From positions 54,684,001 through 54,748,000 of the forward strand of contig OX597820.1 in assembly GCA_951406725.2 (NCBI GenBank): 64,000 bases of DNA, read 5' to 3'. How positions within the stretch are numbered: position 1 is the first letter of the stretch; every line of letters begins with the position of its first letter. The position numbers and the translations under genes were made by a program. Origin of the DNA: Octopus vulgaris (lineage: Eukaryota). Of the stretch, positions 5,159 through 36,462 are shown one piece after another. The notes under the pieces are model-generated. The model saw only the letters and a program-made list of their open reading frames with translations. It was not told where the DNA came from and made no database searches.

Positions 5159-5323
<165 letters not shown>

Positions 5324-6010: not shown

Positions 6011-7721
6011 TCAATTGGTTTCTAAATAAATTGAGTAATAGACTGCAGCAACAAATACCTTTAGCATTCAAGACTACTCTGTCAAATGTAACGTTTGTTT
6101 ATTCAAAATGTTCTGAATTGATCATGCAATATCTCATAGCTTTGAGATTTAGATGGTGTGATTGCTTGTTCTTAGAATGGCATTGCAAAGGAGGTGTGAC
6201 AAGTAAGATCAGGCCAGTTTGAACATAAAATAGGTAGAATATTTGGGATGGATGTAGCCAGTTTAAATGCGAATGAGTTAGCGTAGTTATATGTAGTAGT
6301 ATTTACAAGTAGTACAGTATGGTTGAATGATTAAAAAGTTAGTTTTGCAACCATATCTGAGGTTTAATCTCACTGCATGGAATCTTAGATAAATGTCATT
6401 TTTGATAGGCTCAGGTCAACCCAAACCTTGCTAATGAAACCTATTGGGTGGATTGTACCTGTAATTCAAAACATATAGCCTTGTCACACACTTTCATGCA
6501 GATTCTACCTTAGAATTACAGAACATATGTCTGTCAAATGCTCAACCACTAACACATTAATTCAGTAGCACGTAAAAGCACCCACTACACTCTCGGAGTG
6601 GTTGGCATTAGGAAGAGCATCCAGCTGTATAAACTCTGCCAGATCAAGATTGAAGCCTGGTGCAGCCCTCAGTCATTCACCAGCCCTCAGTCATTCATCC
6701 AACCCGTGCTAGCATGGAAAGCGGACGTTAAATGATGATGAGATGATGATGTTCAGTTGATTGAACAACTAAATCCTCATTGCTGACTGACAGAGATCCA
6801 CTAACACTAGCCTCAATCATACAGTGCCACAAACAGTTGTGAACAGTGAAATGGTTTATGCGGTGACAACAGGACTAACAATAGCAATTTACTCTTTACC
6901 TACTCTGCATTGATACTCTGTAATTATTACCCAAGCATATTCTTGTTTACATTTTAATAAGTAACCATCTGTTATTAAAAGCCTAGAGTTGTCAGTTATT
7001 AAAGTGTTAGATTAAATGCCATATAAGCATTTTCTCTGGCTTTCTGCACTCTAAGTTGAAATCTTGCTGAGGGCAACTTTCCCTTTCATGATTTTATGGA
7101 GGATAACATAAATAAGCAATCACAATACTATACCAAGGTTGTCACAACATGGCTGTTCCACTGGGGCAAAGGATGGGATCATCAAGAATATGTTCCACTG
7201 GAGCAAGGGTTGGAACATCAAGAATGTGTTTTCATTTTCTCATAAACTACCTTAACCCATCAGCATTTGAACTGGCTATATCCAGCTCTATCTGTCTTAT
7301 GTTCAAACTAACTAGATCTGTCCTCTCACACCTAGCCTACAATGTAATTCTAAAAATAAACAATCACATCATTGAAATTTGGAAGCTACAAGGTAATGCA
7401 AAATTAATTCAAAATGATCCGAATAAATAATCATTATGTTTGACAGAGCACTCTGAATGCTGAAGGGTTAAGTGTATGTTAGATCTATCAAATTACTGAA
7501 AAAAGGTCACCATGACAAAACCACTCAGTTTTGTTTTGATAGTTAAGTCCTAGTGCCATACCCTTTTAAATACAATAAAAATCCTGTGATAGCTGGTTTC
7601 TATCTAAAGATAAATGACATTCTTGGGAACAGACAAGTTCCAGTATGATACTAAAAAGCAATCAACATCCAAATAAATTCTTTTCATTTCATTTCTAAAA
7701 AATGTTCAAAAGTCGATTTTA

Positions 7722-7841
<120 letters not shown>

Positions 7842-9460
7842 TCAAATGAACATTTTACAAAACATTTACTTACCCATAAGATAAATTTTTTAAATGTTTT
7901 TTCATTAAATCATAACACTAGAGGACAATTCAGTATTACAAAAAAAGTATTTTAAACTGATTCACTGATGTAATATTATCAAAGAAGTTACTGACAGTGC
8001 CCCAGCATGGCTGTGACTTCTGGGCTAAAACACATAAAAAAATATTTTGTGCAAGTGTGTGTACACATATACTTTTGGTATTTCAAAAACTGGGGGGTTT
8101 TGGGGGAGTTTTCTTTACACTCCTATGGGTAGCATAGTTTCTTTGTTGGAATCATCATCATCATTGTTTAACGTCCATTTTCCATGCTGGCATGGGTTGG
8201 ACAGTTTGACTAAGGACTGGCAAGCCAGAAGACTGCACCAGGTTCCAATCTGATTTGGCAAGGTTTCTACAGTTGGATGCCTTTCCTAACACCAACCACT
8301 CAGAGTGTAATGGGTGCTTTTTACATGCCACCAGCACAGGGGCCAATCCGGTGACACTGGCATCAGTAATGCTTGAATGGTGCATATTTTTAAAGATGGA
8401 GATATTTCCTACTGCTCACAACCTCATCTAAGGCAATTGAAGGATTAAAACCAACCAAAAAGACTTTTTTTTTTCATATCCCTCACGTAATCAAAGCTCA
8501 TAAATCCAAAACACTAGAATGGTTTACCCTCAGTAGAGCTACACCAGTATAAAACAACTGGAGAATGTCACCCTACAACTACAACACATGCAAGATCACC
8601 ATCAGAAAAGCAAAATTATCACATAGCCAGCAACTCTACCTGTCCCCCAAATTACAATAGAACCTTATGATTCCCTTACAGAATCCCCTTACTCAAAACT
8701 TCTCAACCAAGATGGCTATTAACAATATTCACTTAAAAGAAATACTTCTACTTTTGCTATCCATTTTACATCTACATTGCACGTTCTCAACAAAGCTAAT
8801 AAATTCCAACCATTCATGTCTCTATCACACCACTAAATATACACTGTCATCACATATAAAATTCCAATAGCTGAAACCCAACAAGGCAACTGATCTGTAG
8901 CTTCCTTGTAAAATCACTTCATCACTTGCATATCTCCTTCCCCAATACTTATTTAGTTTTTGTAAAACCAGAATAATCAGAAACAAATAATTGTCATTGA
9001 ACAGTGGTTTATCAACCTCGAGAAGTTGGGCAAAAACAAATTTGATGCATTTGACATTAACAAAGCCTTTAAGTGTATCTGGCACAAGAATTTCCAAGCA
9101 AACTTTCTGTGGTTTCTATCCATCTTATTTCATGGATCAAAAGCTTCCTGTAAAACTGCAAAAACTGACCCTAGTACTTATTTTTTTAAGTACATATTTC
9201 GTCAATCTTGTTTGCCAAACTGCTAAGTTACAGGGATGTAAACAAACCAACACAGTTGTCCAGCAGTGTTCAGAGGAACAATCACAAAGACACATAATAG
9301 GCCTTCACATTGTTTCCACCAATCAAATTTACTCATAAGGCATTGATTGACCTGAGATTATAGTAGAAAACATTTGCCCACGGTGCTGTGCAGTGGGACT
9401 GAACCTGAAACCAAGCAGTTACAAAGTGAGCTTCTTATTCACACAGCCATGCTTGCACAA

Positions 9461-9926: not shown

Positions 9927-10133
<207 letters not shown>

Positions 10134-25781: not shown

Positions 25782-26420
25782 CAGGGTGGTGTCAAAAGGT
25801 TCCTGGACTAGTTAGGTTTTATGAAAAGTAACTTATTTACCTAAGTTTGAGCATTATCTCTTGAAATAGTCACCTTGCACAGCAATACACTAGTCCCAGT
25901 GTTCCTGCAACTTCTGGAGTCCGGCCTGGAAGTCATTTTCTGTAAGTGAGTTGAGGACCTTCTGCAATTTGCTCTGGATCTCAAAAACAGTGACCTTTGA
26001 GCTGCATTTTCATCTTGGGGAAGAGATGAAGTCCACAGGTGTTAAAGTGATACGATACTATGTTGTTTTTGGCAAGAAACTCGTGCAGAAAGCTCAGTGA
26101 TGGTACATTGTCATCGTGAAGAATCCAGTTCTTCACACTCCACAGATCTGGCCACTTTCGCTGAATGTCCTCTCTCAAATGCTTCAAAACGTTGCAGTAG
26201 AACTCAATAGTCTAGCCTTAGAGGATGAATCCTCAATGCATAATACTGTGGATGTTGAAAAAACATGATGAGCATGACCTTGATCGAGTTGCAGCTCTGT
26301 CATGACAAAAACTGCAGACTATGGCATACACATGATCACAAAAACACAAATTTCACAACTTGTGAAGTAAACAGTGTTGTCACTCAGCATATTGTGTGCA
26401 ACCATATGTCATCATCTGTT
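25782..26420 (-). mobile_element. Degenerate mariner remnant
   Basis: LREDIQRKWPDLW..WILHDDN..LFPKMKMQLKG transposase fragment; TIR-like gggtggtgtcaaaaggttcctggact. Confidence 0.75.
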
Positions 26421-28678: not shown

Positions 28679-29916
28679 TTTACAAGAAACGAACGTCAAA
28701 CTGCAGTTACTTGTCTTCTTTAACAGTTAGTGGTGGTCGGTACCCGGCGCGTGTCTTTCTGTATTATTGCTTTCTTCTCTGTTTGCTTTATCTCCCTTTC
28801 TCTCTCACACATACTTTCTCTCTCTCTTCTCTTACTCTATCTAGCATGCTTCTCTCAGCCTTCTACCATTGATTTTCTTGTTACTCCCGATCTTTTTTTC
28901 CTCTCTTTTTCTGTTTATCGCTTTTCACTCACCCTCCTACTATCACTTATATTACTGATAAGTACAGCTTTTGCTTTCCTCCTCCTTCATCTTCTTTTAT
29001 AACCTCTCTCTCAATTTTCTCAGTTTAATCCTCCCATAATATCAACGATGATGTTAATTGCTGCCCGTTACTCTCTCTTTACCCGACTGACGTTTTTTCT
29101 CACGCTGGATGTCTGCTCTCCTTTTCTCCCCAGCTCTGCTCTTTTCTTGTTTTGTATTTGAGCCATTTCACCTTTGTTTAGTTTCACCGTATTTGTTTAT
29201 TAGTAACCTTAGTTTCCCTCAACATATTCCATTTAATTTTTATACCTGATACGAATTTATATACATTTTTAATGATGATAATGATGATATGGTGGTAGTG
29301 GTAAATAGACTGTGATATGTAAATGTTTTCTAACAGGCATCCCTTCAAGGCTAGATTAAGAATAACCGATGTTCTTAACACAACTCCCTCGACCCTTCCA
29401 TTGTCTGACAAGACATAAGTGATGCATGTGAAATAGTTAAAAAATCACAATACTAAATACTAGCAAGCATTGTCAACAAATTATTTACTTTGAATAAGGA
29501 CAACAAGAAAAAAATGATAATTTTCATATTTCATTATTAATTGTTCTGTAACTGATATAAGGGGAAAAGGCAAATGAAAAGCATTGTTTATATTTTTAAG
29601 AACAATACATTGCAACACCTAATAACTTATACAGTAATACAAATTAGACCATTTTGGTTTAATGTAATTTGTTGTAACAACTGGTCCAACGCTGATACCT
29701 ATTTAACAATTTGTTCATTGTCCGTTTATATATTGTTCGTGCAATAAATTTATGTATTTATTTATTTATTTATTTTTTTCTCTTGGGCAAGCGAGTAGGA
29801 CAAAGCCATGGACATTTTACTCGGCCTCTGTATTTGGATGAATTGCCGAAACTGACGTCTGTATTAAGAATTCTCAATCGGTACATTTCGGACGATTATG
29901 GTCCTGTTAGTGAATA

Positions 29917-31206
29917 CGAGGGGCGTTCAATAAGTAATGCCCCTGACCCACTTCCCATAGCAGTAGAGCAACGAAACTTGGCACAGTTATTAGTCTTTTT
30001 CTACATAGGAACCACCCAGAGTTACGCATTTCTCCCATCGTTTGATGCGGCTCCGGAGACCGTTTTTGTAGAAGAACCCAGCTTGGTCCTCCAACCTCAA
30101 CGTGACTTCAGAAATCAAGGCTGCATCATCTGGGAAACGCTTTCCTTTCAAAAACAACTTCATGATTGGGAAGAGGTGAAAATCAGAGGGTGATAGATCA
30201 GGAGAGTAAGGGGGTGGGGGAGGAGTTCATAGCCATACGCTTGTGCTTCTGATCTGGCGACAAGCGAGTTGTGGACCGGAGCGTTGTCCTGCAGGAGGAG
30301 GATGCCTTTGCTGATCTTGCCCCGCCTCTTGATTTTGATAACTTCTCTTAATTTCCTCAAAAGTGAAGCATAATAGGCTCCTGCAATTGTGGTACCCTTT
30401 GCCAGGAAATCTGTCATCACTACTTCGTCCTGGTCCCAGAAGACTGTGAGCATGACCCTGCCAGCGGAGGGCTGCACCCTTGCCTTCTTTGGAGGAGGTG
30501 AGTCACGGTGCTTCCACTGCATTGACTGGGTTTTGGTCTCTGGATCATCGTGATGGACCCAGGTTTCATCCTGTGTAATCAGTCTTTTGAAAAATTTTGA
30601 CTCATCTTCTTGGCACATCTCCAAATTCACCCTCGAGCACTCGACGCGTTCTTGCTTCTGGAAAGGCGTGAGCAACCTGGGAATCCATCTGGCAGACACC
30701 TTTTGCATATGCAAATGGTCATGAATGATAGTTTCCACAGACCCGGTACTAATCTTGACCTCATGGGCTATTTGGCGAATAATTATGCGTCGATCTTCCA
30801 AAATGGCAGCCTCAACTTGATGGACAGATGCCTCATCAATGGCAGAAGGGGGCGACCAGATCTGGGAGCTGTTTCCACAGAGTTCCGACCATGTTTGAAT
30901 TCACGATGCCAGCGTTTTACAAGGTCATATGATGGGGCATCATCACCATAAGTTACTTTCATTTCATCAAAAGTCTCCCGTGGTGTGCGTCCTTTCAAAT
31001 ACAAAAACCGGATCACTGCTTGACACTCAACAGGCTCCATTTCACACTTGACTCGGTTAAAACACCTGTAAATCAGAAACACCTGTAATTCAGAGCTGTA
31101 ATTTGCCACTTACTCTATAGAGATATAAATGATTGCACATGCAAAATTTCAGCTAGATCAAACAACTGCAAGTGGGTCAGAAGCATTACTTATTGAACGT
31201 CCCTCG
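29917..31206 (-). mobile_element. Near full-length mariner (DD34D) transposon; transposase 31040->29990 with two frameshifts
   Basis: TIRs cgaggggcgttcaataagtaatgc / gcattacttattgaacgtccctcg with TA duplications; WIPRLL, TQDETW, LQDNAPVH and (Y)SPDL..SD motifs. Confidence 0.95.
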
Positions 31207-31464
31207 TATGTGTTCATTCATGTGCGTTAACTACAGCATTAGAGCGGTTTCGCTCTTATTTCTAGCAAAGTAGGTGTTTCCTAACACCCTAGTCACATTT
31301 AGTAACAATTATGATTCTCTTTTTTGGTGAAACATTGCAAACTGCTGTTTATATCAATTTTATATATACACATTAGCGAATCGCTAACACATCCAATAAT
31401 TTGGACGGCGAAACATAAATACTAAAGACGAGCGAAACCAGAAGCAGCCGAACAATCAAGCGGT

Positions 31465-31510
31465 CTTGACTGATGAGGCGACGGGAATTGCCGAAACTGA
31501 CGTCAATATT
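31465..31510 (+). ncRNA. Candidate minimal type I hammerhead ribozyme within a ~350-bp tandem unit
   Basis: CTGATGA (31470-31476), stem II GGCGA/TTGCC with loop CGGGAA, then GAAAC-TGAC-GTC; stem I pairs poorly in this copy. Confidence 0.55.
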
Positions 31511-32726
31511 AAAAATTCTCGATTGGCACTTTACTCTGTTAGCGTATATGTTTACAGTCATATTCATTAACTACAGCTATGTAGGTGTTTACTAACACAC
31601 TAGTCACATTTAGCAACAATTATAATTCTCCTTTTTGTTAAAACATTGCAAACTGTTGTTTATATTATACATAGATAGATATATACATACATAAACAGAC
31701 ATGTACGTTTGTGTGTGCGTGTTTATATTTTCGGGTGTATGTCTTTATGTATATATAAGCATCTTACACTTATATCACATAACATTCTTTTCCTTTCCAT
31801 ATTTTGCTTTATCTTCATTACTGTGTCGTGTGACCTTTTACTGTTGTTATTATCTTTTTCTGGTTATCGCCTACTTATATTCTTCAGCAAAAACGTGAAA
31901 CATGAGAACTCTTTTCTTCCCCACACTGTACACAAACTTATTCCATGTATTGAATTTTACTTAATAGATCATTTCTAACGCAGACCATCATTTATTCCAT
32001 CAGATTGAGAAATGCTAAAAATATCATAGCTATGTTGATGCTAACATAACACAATTGATACATAGACTATTCACGATACATTAATTGAAAAGTTAACTTG
32101 AACTAACATGTGTGCTCTGACCAGTTATTGTAGAGGAGATAATCATTTTTAGATAAATCTTGGCGGGGTTCGGATAAATATGGTAGGACAGTGTGTATGA
32201 CAGACGGTTCAGGGAGCCAACAACAGGTAAGTGGCTGTCTACTGGGTCATTCCCTAAAGAACAAAAAGCCCAACATGCCTCAATGCTGAGGACACTTTCT
32301 TCGTTATCCTGGGGCCCGAAAGTAGCGTTGTTCAGGTTTGCCAAATTTTTCTCAGAAGTGCTGGGTGAGGAAAAAATATATATATTGGTCAATGATTAAT
32401 ATTATTTTCCTCCGTGGATTTACAGAATTGGTAGTGCATCTGACAAAATGCTTTGTAGTATATAGCTATGCCTCTTTGGGTTTTGATTTGGCATCCTGCA
32501 AGATTAGCTTTGATTTTCATCCTCTTGGAGTGGGGACGATAAAATTATTACTAGGCAAATACTTGGGCCGATCTTAATCGACTGTATCCTCTACCAAACT
32601 AAGAACTTTTGTGTCTATGTTAAATATCAATAGTATATTTTATTTATCGGCATGTATGTAAAAACAACTCCAGACACGCCTCGATCTTATACTAACTTCA
32701 TCAGCGAAGCATAGTGTTTACTAAGC

Positions 32727-35700
32727 TTGGTAGTAGGTATCCGTCGGTCTCGAGAGATTATAGTCTGCGCCCAAAGAAATCGTGTCAGTTGCTGATGGTG
32801 GTGCAGTGTCTGTTGTGGCTGTACTGGCCCACACGGGAGTGGTAGTCACGCATACAGCGACTGCATTTGAAGGAGCTCTCTGCAGGTCCTACTGGTTTTT
32901 CCTTCCATCGAGTTCGCTTTTCTTTGATGGAGAGTTCCTGCTCTTTTCATACACTTTCGCTGTATTTGTTTCCATTGTGGACGATCATTTGCAACCTCCA
33001 CCCATCTCAGGACGTCCAGATCAAGCAACTTCATATCCCTCTTACAGACGTCCTCAAAAGGAAGATGATTTCATCCTCGTGCTCTTGTGCCGGTGGCCAA
33101 TTCTTCATACAGGAAGTCTTTTAGGATCGTTCCGTCCGGCATGCGATGTACATGACCGACCCAGTGCAAACGATGCTACTGGAACAGGGTGAGTATGCTG
33201 GGTATCTTGGCTCGGTTAAGGATTTCGGTGTTGATGTGCTCGGTCCACTTGATATCCAAGATACGTCTCAAATTACAAAGGTGAAAGACTTGTGTCACAC
33301 CTATCTGGAGTAGAGGCTCGACGTCTCACTGCCGTAAAGTAGCGTACTAAGGACGCATGCCTTATAGATAACAATGTTGGTGTTAGCAGCCAGTTTCTTC
33401 TTTTCCCAGACTTACTTAGAGCCTGGCAAATGTGGAGGATGCTTGTCCTATTCGCCTGTTGATCTCAGGGTCCAGGGAGAGGTCATCAGCGATGGTAGAG
33501 CCGAGATAGATGAATTAATAGACTGCCTCCCGCTTGTAGTTGTTGATAGTGATGGATGGGGGGTGCTTGACACTTTGACCCATTACTTGGGTCTTCTTCG
33601 GACTGAATTCCTGACAGGTCTTTGAAAGTCTGTCCACGAGGTGCTGCTGCATTTGCTCTTCAGAGTGCTTTGTCAGTGCTGCGTCGTCCACGAACAGCAT
33701 TTTTCTGACGAGTACCTGACGCACCCTAAATTTTGCTTTCAGCCTCGACAGACTAAACAGTTTGCCGCTTGATCTGGTGTTGAGGTAAACACCATCAGTT
33801 GATATCCCAAATGCATGTTTCAGCATGACTGCAAAGAAGATGCCAAACAGGATGGGGGCAAGCACACAACCCTGCTTCACCCCGCTGCGTACGTTGAATG
33901 TCCCCGAAGAAGAGCCATCAAATTGAACGACGCCTTTCATGTCCGCGTGAAATCATTGGACAATCCTGAGGATTCTTAGAGGATAGCCTATCTTGTCAAG
34001 GATTTTGAACAGGCCGTCCCTACTGACAAGGTCAAAAGCCTTTCTAAGGTCGATGAAGATGATAAAGAGTGGTTGCCTTTGCTCTCTTCAATTTACCTGT
34101 AGCTGTCGGAGAGAGATCATGTCGATGGTGGAGCGTTTTGGAGTATACCCTTTCAGCAAGAGATTTGGAGTAAACACTCTCAAAGAATTTTTATAATCTG
34201 TTTAGGGCCAGGCAGGCAAAGACCTTCCCAACGATGCTTAACTGTGAGATGCCTCGGTAGTTATTGCAGTCGCTTTTGTCCCCTTTGTTCTTATATAGGG
34301 TGACAATGTTGTAGTCTTTCATGTTTAGCGACACTGATCCTTCCTCCTAACACTGACACAATAGCTTCAGCAAGTGGCTAAGTAGAACTCTCCTTGCACA
34401 TCCAAACCCGGTGCTTTTCCAGTGGGCAATCCATCAATGGCTCTACTCAGTTCTTCAGCAGTTGGCAGTGTATCTAGTTCCTCTATGGCAGGTAGGTGCT
34501 CTAAGTTGTCTAGCACACTGTCCGAGATGTAGTTTTCCTTGGTGCAGAGTTCGGAATTATGTTCCACGCATCTCCCCAGCTGTTCTCTTTTGCCCCTGAC
34601 CACTTCCCCTGTTCTGGATTTAAGTGGAGTTATCTTATTATGGGTTGGACCAATGGCTTTCTTGATACACTCAAACATTCCACAAATGTTGCCCGTGTCA
34701 AATGAGTTGGATATCTGCACATAATCGTAACCAGTAGTCATTTGCACACCGTCTCATTGTCTACTGCATGCTGTTCCTTGCTGATCTCAATGCTTGTAGC
34801 GCTGCTCTGGTGGGTTGGTGTTTGTGCTTCAGCAGGGTAGCACGCTTCTCCTTCATGGTTTTAATGAATTCTTTCACATTCGCCTCAAACCAGCCATGTG
34901 TCATTTTCCTCCTCTTCCCAGAAGCCCTCAGTGCAGTGCTATGGATGATCTCCTTGAGAGAGTCCCATCTCTACTGAACATTACCTTCTGGTGGGTCTGA
35001 AAAGAGGGCGTCTTCCAGTGTCTTGAGGAATGCATCTGTCTTAGTTGGCTGTTGGGTTGCGGTAGTATTGATATGCTGCTTGCCTGGGGGCTTGGCGCTG
35101 TGAATCATTTTTGGTTGGAGTTTGAGATTACAGCAAACCAGGGAGTGGTCTGTGTCGCAGTCACCGCGCTGAAAAGATCTAATCAGGAGGACATTCCTCA
35201 TGTAGTTGCGTCCTGTGATGATCAAATCTAGCTGGTGCCAGTACCCTGAGCGAGGGTGGAGCCAGGAGACTCTGTGTTGAGTTTTAGCCCGGAAGTAGGT
35301 GTTGGTGACAGATACTCCATGCAGCAGTTGCCCATTTTCTTTCATGTTGCCAACCCCGTACCGACCCTAAAACCTTGGTCAGTAGTCGTGACCAACTCCC
35401 ACTTTGGCATTGAAGTCGCCACGTAGCACCAGCTATTCTCTGTTTGGAATCGTCTGTATTGTCCTAGAGAACTGATCGTAGAACTTATCCTTGGTATCTT
35501 GTGAGGAATAGAGGGTTGGAGCATAAGCACTGGTAAGGTTGACAACCGAAGTGCGCAATCGAAGTGAGAGTATCCGCTCTGAACTGTCATTGTTGAGTTC
35601 TACGAACTTTCGCAGATAGTTCTTCACAGCAAAACCGATACCATGCTCTCTGACATCATCTATGCCTTTCCCTTGCCAGAGAAAGGTATAGTCTCTTTCA

Positions 35701-36462
35701 CGAAGGGTCCCCGAATCTGGAAGCCCCGTTTCTTGGAGTGCTGCAATGGAGTGCTTCAATGTCCACTCAGAATCGAAGCAGTTTCGTTGTTGATCACTGC
35801 TGTCTTACGTGTGATGCTGATCTTTTGGTCCTCTGACAGATCAGTTGTCATGGTCCTTATGTTCCAACATCCAAGTCTGAATGCTGGTTTTTTGCCTTGC
35901 TTGCTTATTTGTTGTTAATTTTTCTTGGTGCAATGTTTGCAACTCACAATTTGGGATGTTAGTTTCCCTAAGCCCCACGCACCCAGTGGAGCAGGTGGGC
36001 TGTAACGGGATAACACCTAACTGGCCGGGGGCTGCCCAGCTTCAGGCAGGCGGTAACAGTCCAGTGAGGCACAATGACCTCCTCCTCCGTCGAAAGCAGC
36101 CCCTGGCGCCTTGCTCTTACACCAATTACGTGCAGGTTTAAATCCGGCAGACTACTGCTTTCCATATTTTTGCCGCCGCGGTTAGACGTCGCTGGAGTGT
36201 TCTCTCCAGGGCGCAGGCCTGGGCAGTTTTTCATGGGAAATTGGCAGCTGCCTATGCGATACATCTCTCCTCTTCACCGCCAACAGTGTTATCTAAGGGA
36301 AGGGCCGGGGTCAATACGATTTAGCACCAGTGGGGCCGCAGAAGTTGCCAGAACAAGGTTGTCTACAGCATCGAATTGCCTTAGGGACTCTAGCGCCTGT
36401 TATCCTCGGGGTTTACCCCCGAAGCGTTTCTCTTTAGTGGGTAATACCGCAAGGCAGCAGAG
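32727..36462 (-). mobile_element. Near full-length but decayed RTE (BovB-like) LINE
   Basis: LGCWNIRTM, AALQET, SAYAPT, HWHQLD-like, DTDH endonuclease motifs; GKAPG, YRGIS, FIDLRKAFD, SGVKQGCVLAP, LFVDD RT motifs; RTE-type tail tctctcgagaccgacggatacctacta. Confidence 0.92.

What the first reader, a model, noticed from the sequence alone, without database searches (positions are those of the whole stretch)
29820..31670. Hidden ~350-bp tandem repeat carrying a hammerhead ribozyme core (retrozyme/Penelope-like), split by a mariner
Seen: the 20-mer GAATTGCCGAAACTGACGTC occurs exactly at 29840-29859 and at 31485-31504. The sequence after the first copy (29860-29916, then 31209-31370 once the 1290-bp mariner and its TA duplication are removed) aligns with 31505-31670, giving a period of about 353 bp and at least 1.5 copies. 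The second copy has intact hammerhead boxes: CTGATGA, stem II GGCGA/TTGCC, GAAAC-4 nt-GTC. The first copy has lost its CTGATGA half, apparently by a deletion between GAYG microhomologies. The unit also holds small hairpins (agagcg-gttt-cgctct; ggtgtt-tcct-aacacc; tcaag-cggt-cttga). Known: minimal type I hammerheads with a very short stem III occur in Penelope-like element repeats and in metazoan non-LTR retrozymes, short tandem units processed into monomers and circular RNAs. Inference: this is a member of a cephalopod retrozyme-like family 1-3 kb upstream of ADH and oriented away from it. Caveat: stem I is poorly paired here, so this copy may be dead.
Basis: partly seen in the sequence, partly recalled or inferred. 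Interest (0 to 1): 0.7.

Follow-up and report, generated by a model that had tools for sequence, protein, structure and literature searches.

The report
Old Penelope-spread hammerhead retrozyme copy
This is one worn-out copy of a small, protein-less repeat that occurs at least 150 times in this animal genome and carries a predicted self-cutting RNA; it was likely pasted in long ago by a Penelope-type jumping gene and later split by another transposon, so it is an ordinary member of a known kind of element.

Summary
The repeat is real. The 20-mer, the 1290-bp mariner with TA duplication and the 353-bp empty-site period are confirmed. It is one old copy of a dispersed ~356-nt non-coding family (at least 150 hammerhead matches; pieces 75-94% identical to the consensus). 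Across the family, stem I is a well-paired 6-bp helix extended into a long arm. The predicted cut follows GUA (after 31508, not 31504). Helix III is 4-5 bp and palindromic, not minimal. This copy carries G16.2>A and a stem I mismatch, and its upstream unit is 5'-truncated inside the ribozyme, so it is probably dead. Insertions have Penelope-type anatomy: partial tandems, back-to-back arms, two fixed 3' ends, TA/CA-microsatellite flanks. Coding GIY-YIG Penelope elements in this genome end the same way. A sister family shares the 3' tail and has a different hammerhead sequence with the same fold. No coding partner, promoter or transcript was found. Verdict: new, decayed member of the metazoan non-LTR retrozymes (non-autonomous Penelope-like elements). 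Earlier notes of this scan report the same kind of element many times on other DNA of this genome.

The parts
29840..29916 (+). Unit 1, 5' part (consensus u120/121-199): 5'-truncated inside the hammerhead; keeps only the 3' half (stem II 3' strand, GAAA, helix III, GTA site, stem I 3' strand)
   Evidence: left flank single-copy
29917..31206 (-). Mariner DNA transposon, 1290 bp, frameshifted transposase, TA duplicated at 29915-16 and 31207-08; inserted later than the repeat
   Evidence: unit 1 reads continuously across the empty site
31209..31367 (+). Unit 1, 3' part (u200-356), 95% identical to the family consensus, ending in the head-to-tail junction
31368..31667 (+). Unit 2 (u1-347), near full length, with deletions of about 14 and 29 nt against the consensus
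31464..31514 (+). Type I hammerhead: stem I 31464-69 with 31509-14; core 31470-76; stem II 31477-81 with 31488-92; GAAA 31493-96; helix III 31496-31507; predicted cut after 31508; G16.2>A at 31506
31436..31535 (+). Extended stem I arm around the ribozyme (internal loop plus two more helices in the family), decayed in this copy
   Evidence: fold z +0.43 here, against -3.2 and -2.2 for L018 and L021
31668..31740 (+). Degraded TA/CA/TG microsatellite flank, the likely target site
   Evidence: family pattern

Best explanation
This is an old, likely inactive insertion of a ~356-nt non-coding repeat family with a predicted type I hammerhead, likely copied into a TA/CA microsatellite by a Penelope-type reverse transcriptase/GIY-YIG enzyme and later split by a mariner. 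Shown: the family, its fold pattern, its insertion anatomy, its lack of coding capacity and its decay. Inferred life cycle: a multi-unit source copy is transcribed; hammerheads cut it after GUA into monomers that would circularise. A Penelope enzyme in trans nicks a microsatellite and primes reverse transcription at one of two fixed points of the RNA (about u300 and u350). Copying more than one unit length gives [truncated unit][full unit], as here. Priming from the second DNA strand gives the back-to-back arm seen at many other loci. This copy has one complete ribozyme, with a broken core pair, so it would not release a monomer.
For: Family: 74 DNA matches from 40 of 974 candidates scored; 150 of 150 scored hammerhead-model candidates match (lower bound). 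Fold: 87% of 1020 cells paired, against 30-44% for slid controls. Core 94.9% conserved against 88.4% elsewhere; 465/487 against 10282/11510 in the 29 BLAST-picked loci. Sister family B shares the 3' ~130 nt and has a different stem I/II/III sequence with the same fold and a GTC site. Anatomy in 113 loci: 70 with a head-to-tail junction, 47 with a divergent inverted arm, 84 with either. Of 183 free 3' ends, 47 lie at u290-309 and 63 at u340-356. 42 of 65 terminal ends are followed by an alternating purine-pyrimidine run, against 821 of 5000 random windows. Of 46 back-to-back pairs, 24 join one short and one long end, 0 join two long ends (5.9 expected) and 3 join two short ends (7.8 expected). 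Coding GIY-YIG Penelope elements here also end in (TA)n with or without a ~35-nt tail; L053 has one arm of each kind. This matches published PLE anatomy (PMC8557442, passages). One template per insertion: shared variants 102/4559 sites in 40 tandem pairs against 1.1% permuted (maximum 1.6%); loop-III length variant concordant in 22 of 25 multi-ribozyme loci, 47% expected. Size, 38% GC and no ATG ORF over 68 aa, and a circular-monomer fold with z -7.4, fit retrozymes (PMC7229834, section 14 and passages).
Against: No coding partner with this tail was found. The unit had no meaningful match to 25 GIY-YIG loci or 11 longer stretches, except one family B fragment. A Penelope protein hit only 3 of 99 loci, all family B; by coordinates none lies upstream in sense. 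Covariation within the family is weak: 9 of 500 shuffles reach the score and stem II has no double change. Only 6 of 113 loci have two ribozyme-spanning units in tandem. Cleavage, transcription and circles were not shown. In the minimum-energy fold the core box pairs with helix III, which is an inactive form. Most loci were picked by ribozyme similarity, which inflates core conservation. Shared variants could reflect subfamilies rather than one RNA molecule. In one paper 8 of 9 predicted retrozyme dimers did not cleave (10.64898/2026.07.22.740005, parts 1-3 of 5 read).
Confidence: 0.8

Rival explanations
1. The unit is the solo pseudo-LTR (3' end) of an extinct protein-coding Penelope element, and all copies are truncated insertions of that element, not of an independent small RNA.
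For: Penelope pseudo-LTRs carry type I hammerheads and most motifs occur as single truncated copies (PMC4209133, parts 1-2 of 4 read). The insertion anatomy is the same. The partner search was limited: 150 of 6136 GIY-YIG candidates were scored.
Against: In 70 of 113 loci u1 is preceded directly by u356 of another unit, and some arrays run through two full units (L190, L192, L195). An all-against-all search of flanks in 40 loci found only unrelated repeats and a mariner. Family B is also a ~330-nt tandem unit.
Confidence: 0.12
2. The family was copied from linear, uncut multi-unit transcripts. The hammerhead was a passenger with little activity and no circle took part.
For: Nearly all inserts span an uncut ribozyme. 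5' starts and 3' ends show no cluster at the cut site u145/146. The energy model prefers an inactive pairing of the core box by 2.6-5.3 kcal/mol (no tertiary contacts modelled).
Against: The core is better conserved than the rest and the fold is kept in a family of different sequence. Copying round a re-ligated circle gives the same span. This rival shares the Penelope step with the main reading and differs only in the template.
Confidence: 0.25
3. The tandem and inverted forms arose by DNA-level duplication or fold-back after insertion of a simple SINE-like monomer.
For: Local duplication would also give shared variants within a locus.
Against: Both arms end at fixed unit positions, each against a microsatellite, and the two ends pair non-randomly. 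No tRNA gene in 5 loci and no A or B box in the consensus.
Confidence: 0.04

Closest known systems
Metazoan non-LTR retrozymes (PMC7229834; mussel repeats of ~350-390 bp)
   Same: Non-coding unit of 356 nt, 38% GC, one type I hammerhead per unit, head-to-tail repeats, strongly self-paired predicted circle.
   Different: Mostly 1-2 units per locus, often with an inverted arm. Helix III is 4-5 bp against 1-2 bp in the amphibian and invertebrate motifs described there, and stem I is extended. All copies seen are old. Expression and cleavage are not shown.
Non-autonomous derivatives of Penelope-like elements (10.64898/2026.07.22.740005; non-autonomous Chlamys elements in PMC8557442)
   Same: Partial tandems, inverted 5'-truncated copy, a tail at one end only, microsatellite targets.
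   Different: No homologous coding pseudo-LTR was found here. The window copy fails that preprint's 'active' rule of two consecutive complete ribozymes.
Minimal hammerheads of metazoan PLEs (PMC4209133)
   Same: Type I topology, palindromic helix III region, G10.1-C11.1 pair.
   Different: Not minimal: helix I is 6 bp, helix II 5 bp with no bulge at its 5' end in family A (family B has one), and helix III is long, closer to that paper's fungal and protist variants.

Membership tests
Type I hammerhead ribozyme | Core boxes CUGANGA and GAAA with an NUH triplet | tested here: met
   69 of 133 ribozyme-spanning pieces keep all 14 scored positions; the window copy keeps 13 of 14 and lacks G16.2
Type I hammerhead ribozyme | Three pairable helices with stem I open | tested here: met
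   86-90% of cells paired per helix in 31 sequences, slid controls 30-44%; same fold in family B
Type I hammerhead ribozyme | Compensatory changes in stems I and II within the family | tested here: inconclusive
   Score reached by 9 of 500 shuffles; stem II has no double change
Type I hammerhead ribozyme | Self-cleavage | not testable with these tools
   Needs an in vitro assay
Minimal PLE hammerhead (min-HHR) | Helix III absent or 1-2 bp; helix II 7-8 bp with a 5' bulge | tested here: not met
   Helix III 4-5 bp and helix II 5 bp, against the definition
Metazoan non-LTR retrozyme | Non-coding unit of 150-450 bp, GC under 45%, with a type I hammerhead | tested here: met
   356 nt, 38% GC, longest ATG ORF 68 aa; definition
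Metazoan non-LTR retrozyme | Head-to-tail repeats, with two complete ribozymes in active copies | tested here: met
   Met for the family (70 of 113 loci tandem, 6 of 113 with two ribozyme-spanning units); not met for the window copy
Metazoan non-LTR retrozyme | Expressed as linear and circular monomer RNA | not testable with these tools
   Only assembled contigs of runs guessed to be RNA were on offer
Penelope-type insertion (non-autonomous PLE) | Partial tandem, inverted 5'-truncated copy, tail at one end, microsatellite target | tested here: met
   same two-end pattern in coding elements of this genome; definition
Penelope-type insertion (non-autonomous PLE) | Sequence homology to the pseudo-LTR of a coding partner | tested here: inconclusive
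   None among 25 GIY-YIG loci and 11 longer stretches; 150 of 6136 candidates scored
Autonomous PLE | RT plus GIY-YIG ORF between the repeats | tested here: not met
   The only insert in the window is a mariner; no Penelope ORF upstream of a unit in 99 loci

The most novel reading that the evidence does not exclude
An old radiation of retrozymes keeps one shared ~130-nt tail with two fixed priming points for a Penelope enzyme while the hammerhead sequence turns over. Each two-armed insertion copies one RNA circle from both cut DNA strands, one arm per priming point. The long palindromic helix III repeats the ACUGA of the core box, so it can lock the ribozyme in an inactive fold that keeps the template uncut.
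Probability: 0.3. Interest if true: 0.5.

Novelty: new member of a known kind. Interest (0 to 1): 0.27.

Why it matters
The locus itself is a fossil. The family adds genomic support for the proposal that animal retrozymes are moved by Penelope-like enzymes: the two fixed 3' ends pair non-randomly and match the tail/no-tail ends of coding elements in the same genome. It also offers natural hammerhead variants with a long palindromic helix III for testing monomer against dimer cleavage. Four searches listed no paper describing a cephalopod retrozyme; the library lacks most subscription papers, and Repbase was not available. Younger families noted earlier in this genome would be better test material.

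Tried and rejected
Rfam: no match at cut-off. Tandem Repeats Finder misses the array. The internal-deletion reading of unit 1 was rejected. Coding partner: not found; the abundant 781-aa family shares only an 18-nt match at E 0.99. A 4-kb pair on C20 is a 1.45-kb segmental duplicate, not two terminal repeats. The hammerhead in L073 belongs to a separate ~495-nt repeat, not to the Penelope element beside it. Promoter: no tRNA gene, no A or B box. An snRNA-type promoter, suggested by earlier notes, was not supported: a matrix from 5 U1/U2/U4/U5 promoters of this genome scored the best site in family A at -0.1 (414 of 500 shuffles as high) and in family B at 3.4 (199 of 500), against 5.7-16.8 for left-out real promoters; a 6-nt look-alike at fitting spacing remains unexplained. 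No cluster of junctions at the predicted cut site. Expression: no RNA holder listed; contigs of runs guessed to be RNA hold family pieces but cannot show transcription. Empty-site joints have sides under 30 nt and probably come from other copies. Dropped rows: duplicate loci were removed by place before the 113-locus count; one of the 46 arm pairs (L179) is a spurious overlap and was left in. Supplements were not opened; those of PMC8557442, PMC4209133 and the retrozyme preprint may list related elements.

Full report
Observation. The 20-mer occurs at 29840 and 31485. Between them lies a 1290-bp mariner (29917-31206) with a TA duplication, inverted ends and a frameshifted transposase. Removing it in a script gives a period of 353 bp. 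ADH-like exons lie on the minus strand with a candidate start at 28688 (motifs recalled), so the position statement holds. Rfam alone does not call the ribozyme (19.8 bits, E 2.2).

Family. The unit is a dispersed repeat: 74 matches from 40 of 974 candidates scored, and 150 of 150 scored candidates for a covariance model of the ribozyme region. The consensus is 356 nt, 38% GC, with no ATG ORF above 68 aa. Pieces of 200 nt or more are 75-94% identical to it, so no young copy was seen. The window holds u121-356 followed by u1-347. Runs labelled as three organisms hold pieces of unit 2 with 0-4 differences (labels are coded and may be close kin).

The ribozyme, re-registered. In 31 aligned copies stem I is TCTTAA with TTAAGA, stem II is 5 bp with a 6-nt loop, and helix III is a palindrome that folds as 4-5 bp plus a tetraloop. 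Stem I continues through an internal loop into two more helices. 87% of cells pair, against 30-44% for slid controls, but covariation is weak (9 of 500 shuffles reach the score). Stronger support comes from family B, found through a fragment beside a GIY-YIG hit. It shares the last ~130 nt at about 75-80% identity and has a ~330-nt period. Its hammerhead differs in sequence in all three stems and keeps the fold. Core positions are 94.9% conserved against 88.4% elsewhere; selection of loci by ribozyme similarity inflates this.

This copy. Unit 2 has G16.2>A, a C-A mismatch in stem I, and two deletions further on. It folds no better than its shuffles (z +0.43), whereas L018 and L021 give -3.2 and -2.2. 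Unit 1 begins inside the ribozyme. The sequence before it is single-copy and resembles the missing part no more than 259 of 880 control windows do, so it is a 5' truncation. With one damaged ribozyme the locus is predicted to be inactive (inference).

Insertion anatomy. I examined 113 distinct loci, a subset of those found and biased to intact ribozymes. 70 have a head-to-tail junction, 47 a divergent inverted arm, and 6 two ribozyme-spanning units in tandem. Of 183 free 3' ends, 47 fall at u290-309 and 63 at u340-356. 42 of 65 terminal ends run into an alternating purine-pyrimidine tract, against 821 of 5000 control windows. In 46 back-to-back pairs, 24 combine one end of each kind, none has two long ends (5.9 expected), three have two short ends (7.8 expected), and 19 have at least one other end. 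That test was prompted by earlier notes of this scan; the two end clusters were seen before. PMC8557442 (passages) describes partial tandems, an inverted 5'-truncated copy, a 30-40-bp tail at one end and microsatellite bias for Penelope-like elements. This genome has an abundant RT/GIY-YIG family with intact 781-aa ORFs and a CxxxxCxxC linker; Neptune-type by that linker and recall, not by a tree. Among 25 GIY-YIG loci, 14 sense ends of that family were found, all running into TA-rich sequence; 3 carry a ~35-nt tail, and L053 has a tail-less sense end and a tailed inverted arm.

Template. Overlapping parts of one locus share non-consensus bases twice as often as permuted pairs: 102 of 4559 sites in 40 tandem pairs and 189 of 7684 in 64 inverted pairs, against 1.1%. 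A 2-nt loop-III variant that splits the family 71 to 64 is concordant in 22 of 25 multi-ribozyme loci, with 47% expected. One template or one subfamily per insertion follows; circle against linear multimer cannot be told from copies this old. The circular consensus folds with z -7.4 against 60 shuffles. Its lowest-energy form pairs the core box with helix III, an inactive state; a family B copy does the same. A circle model for such tandems was proposed in PMC4209133 (parts 1-2 of 4 read).

What was not found. No coding partner with this tail, no promoter, and no usable expression data.

Comparison and verdict. It works like, and by the testable features is, a metazoan non-LTR retrozyme (PMC7229834, section 14 and passages). 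A 2026 preprint derives these from Penelope elements (10.64898/2026.07.22.740005, parts 1-3 of 5 read). It is not a minimal PLE hammerhead. Four searches listed no paper on cephalopod retrozymes (listings only, apart from the papers named). Earlier scan notes describe several younger families of this kind in the same genome, though none matched this sequence or place. New member of a known kind; interest 0.27.

Noticed in passing
L077-L096 (e.g. L078:1641-1740:-, L079, L085): Sister family B: ~330-nt tandem unit sharing the 3' ~130 nt with this family, with a different type I hammerhead (GTC site, bulge before stem II); at least 44 matches from 40 of 403 candidates scored.
   Followed up: partly
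L066-L071 (e.g. L068:787-4187): Young, abundant Penelope-like family with an intact 781-aa RT/GIY-YIG ORF preceded by a separate upstream ORF of 330-480 aa, a tandemly repeated 3' UTR, and (TA)n ends with or without a ~35-nt tail. No canonical hammerhead was found by my scan.
   Followed up: partly
L073:2423 and 2918 (minus strand): Near-identical tandem ~495-nt repeat with a CTGAAGA hammerhead, long AT-rich stem II and palindrome-like helix III, just downstream of a Penelope element's (TA)n end.
   Followed up: no
window 29860-29872 with 31464-31481: The 3' half ribozyme of unit 1 keeps G16.2 and a stem I strand that pairs 6 of 6 with the 5' half of unit 2, so a long-range permuted hammerhead across the mariner is formally possible.
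   Followed up: no
L197-L226, upstream of U1, U2, U4 and U5 genes: snRNA genes share an ATCAGTG-like element near -58 and an AATTAA element near -90, a likely bipartite promoter in this genome.
   Followed up: partly
L127:2635-4202 and 6675-8099: A 1.45-kb segment carrying a permuted copy of the unit is duplicated 4 kb away; one copy is flanked by a ~60-bp direct repeat inside a DNA-transposon-like coding region.
   Followed up: no
window 471-28688, minus strand: Alcohol dehydrogenase-like gene: exons near 471-659, 5159-5323 and 9927-10133, and a candidate first exon at 28688 followed by a long intron.
   Followed up: partly
window 33368-35804: Degraded LINE (RTE-like by recall) endonuclease and reverse transcriptase fragments on the minus strand; another mariner-like fragment near 25841-26211.
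   Followed up: no
window 31034-31089 (loose ends): Several contigs of this mariner family break into telomere-like CCCTAA repeats at these positions, in one DNA run and one run guessed to be RNA.
   Followed up: no
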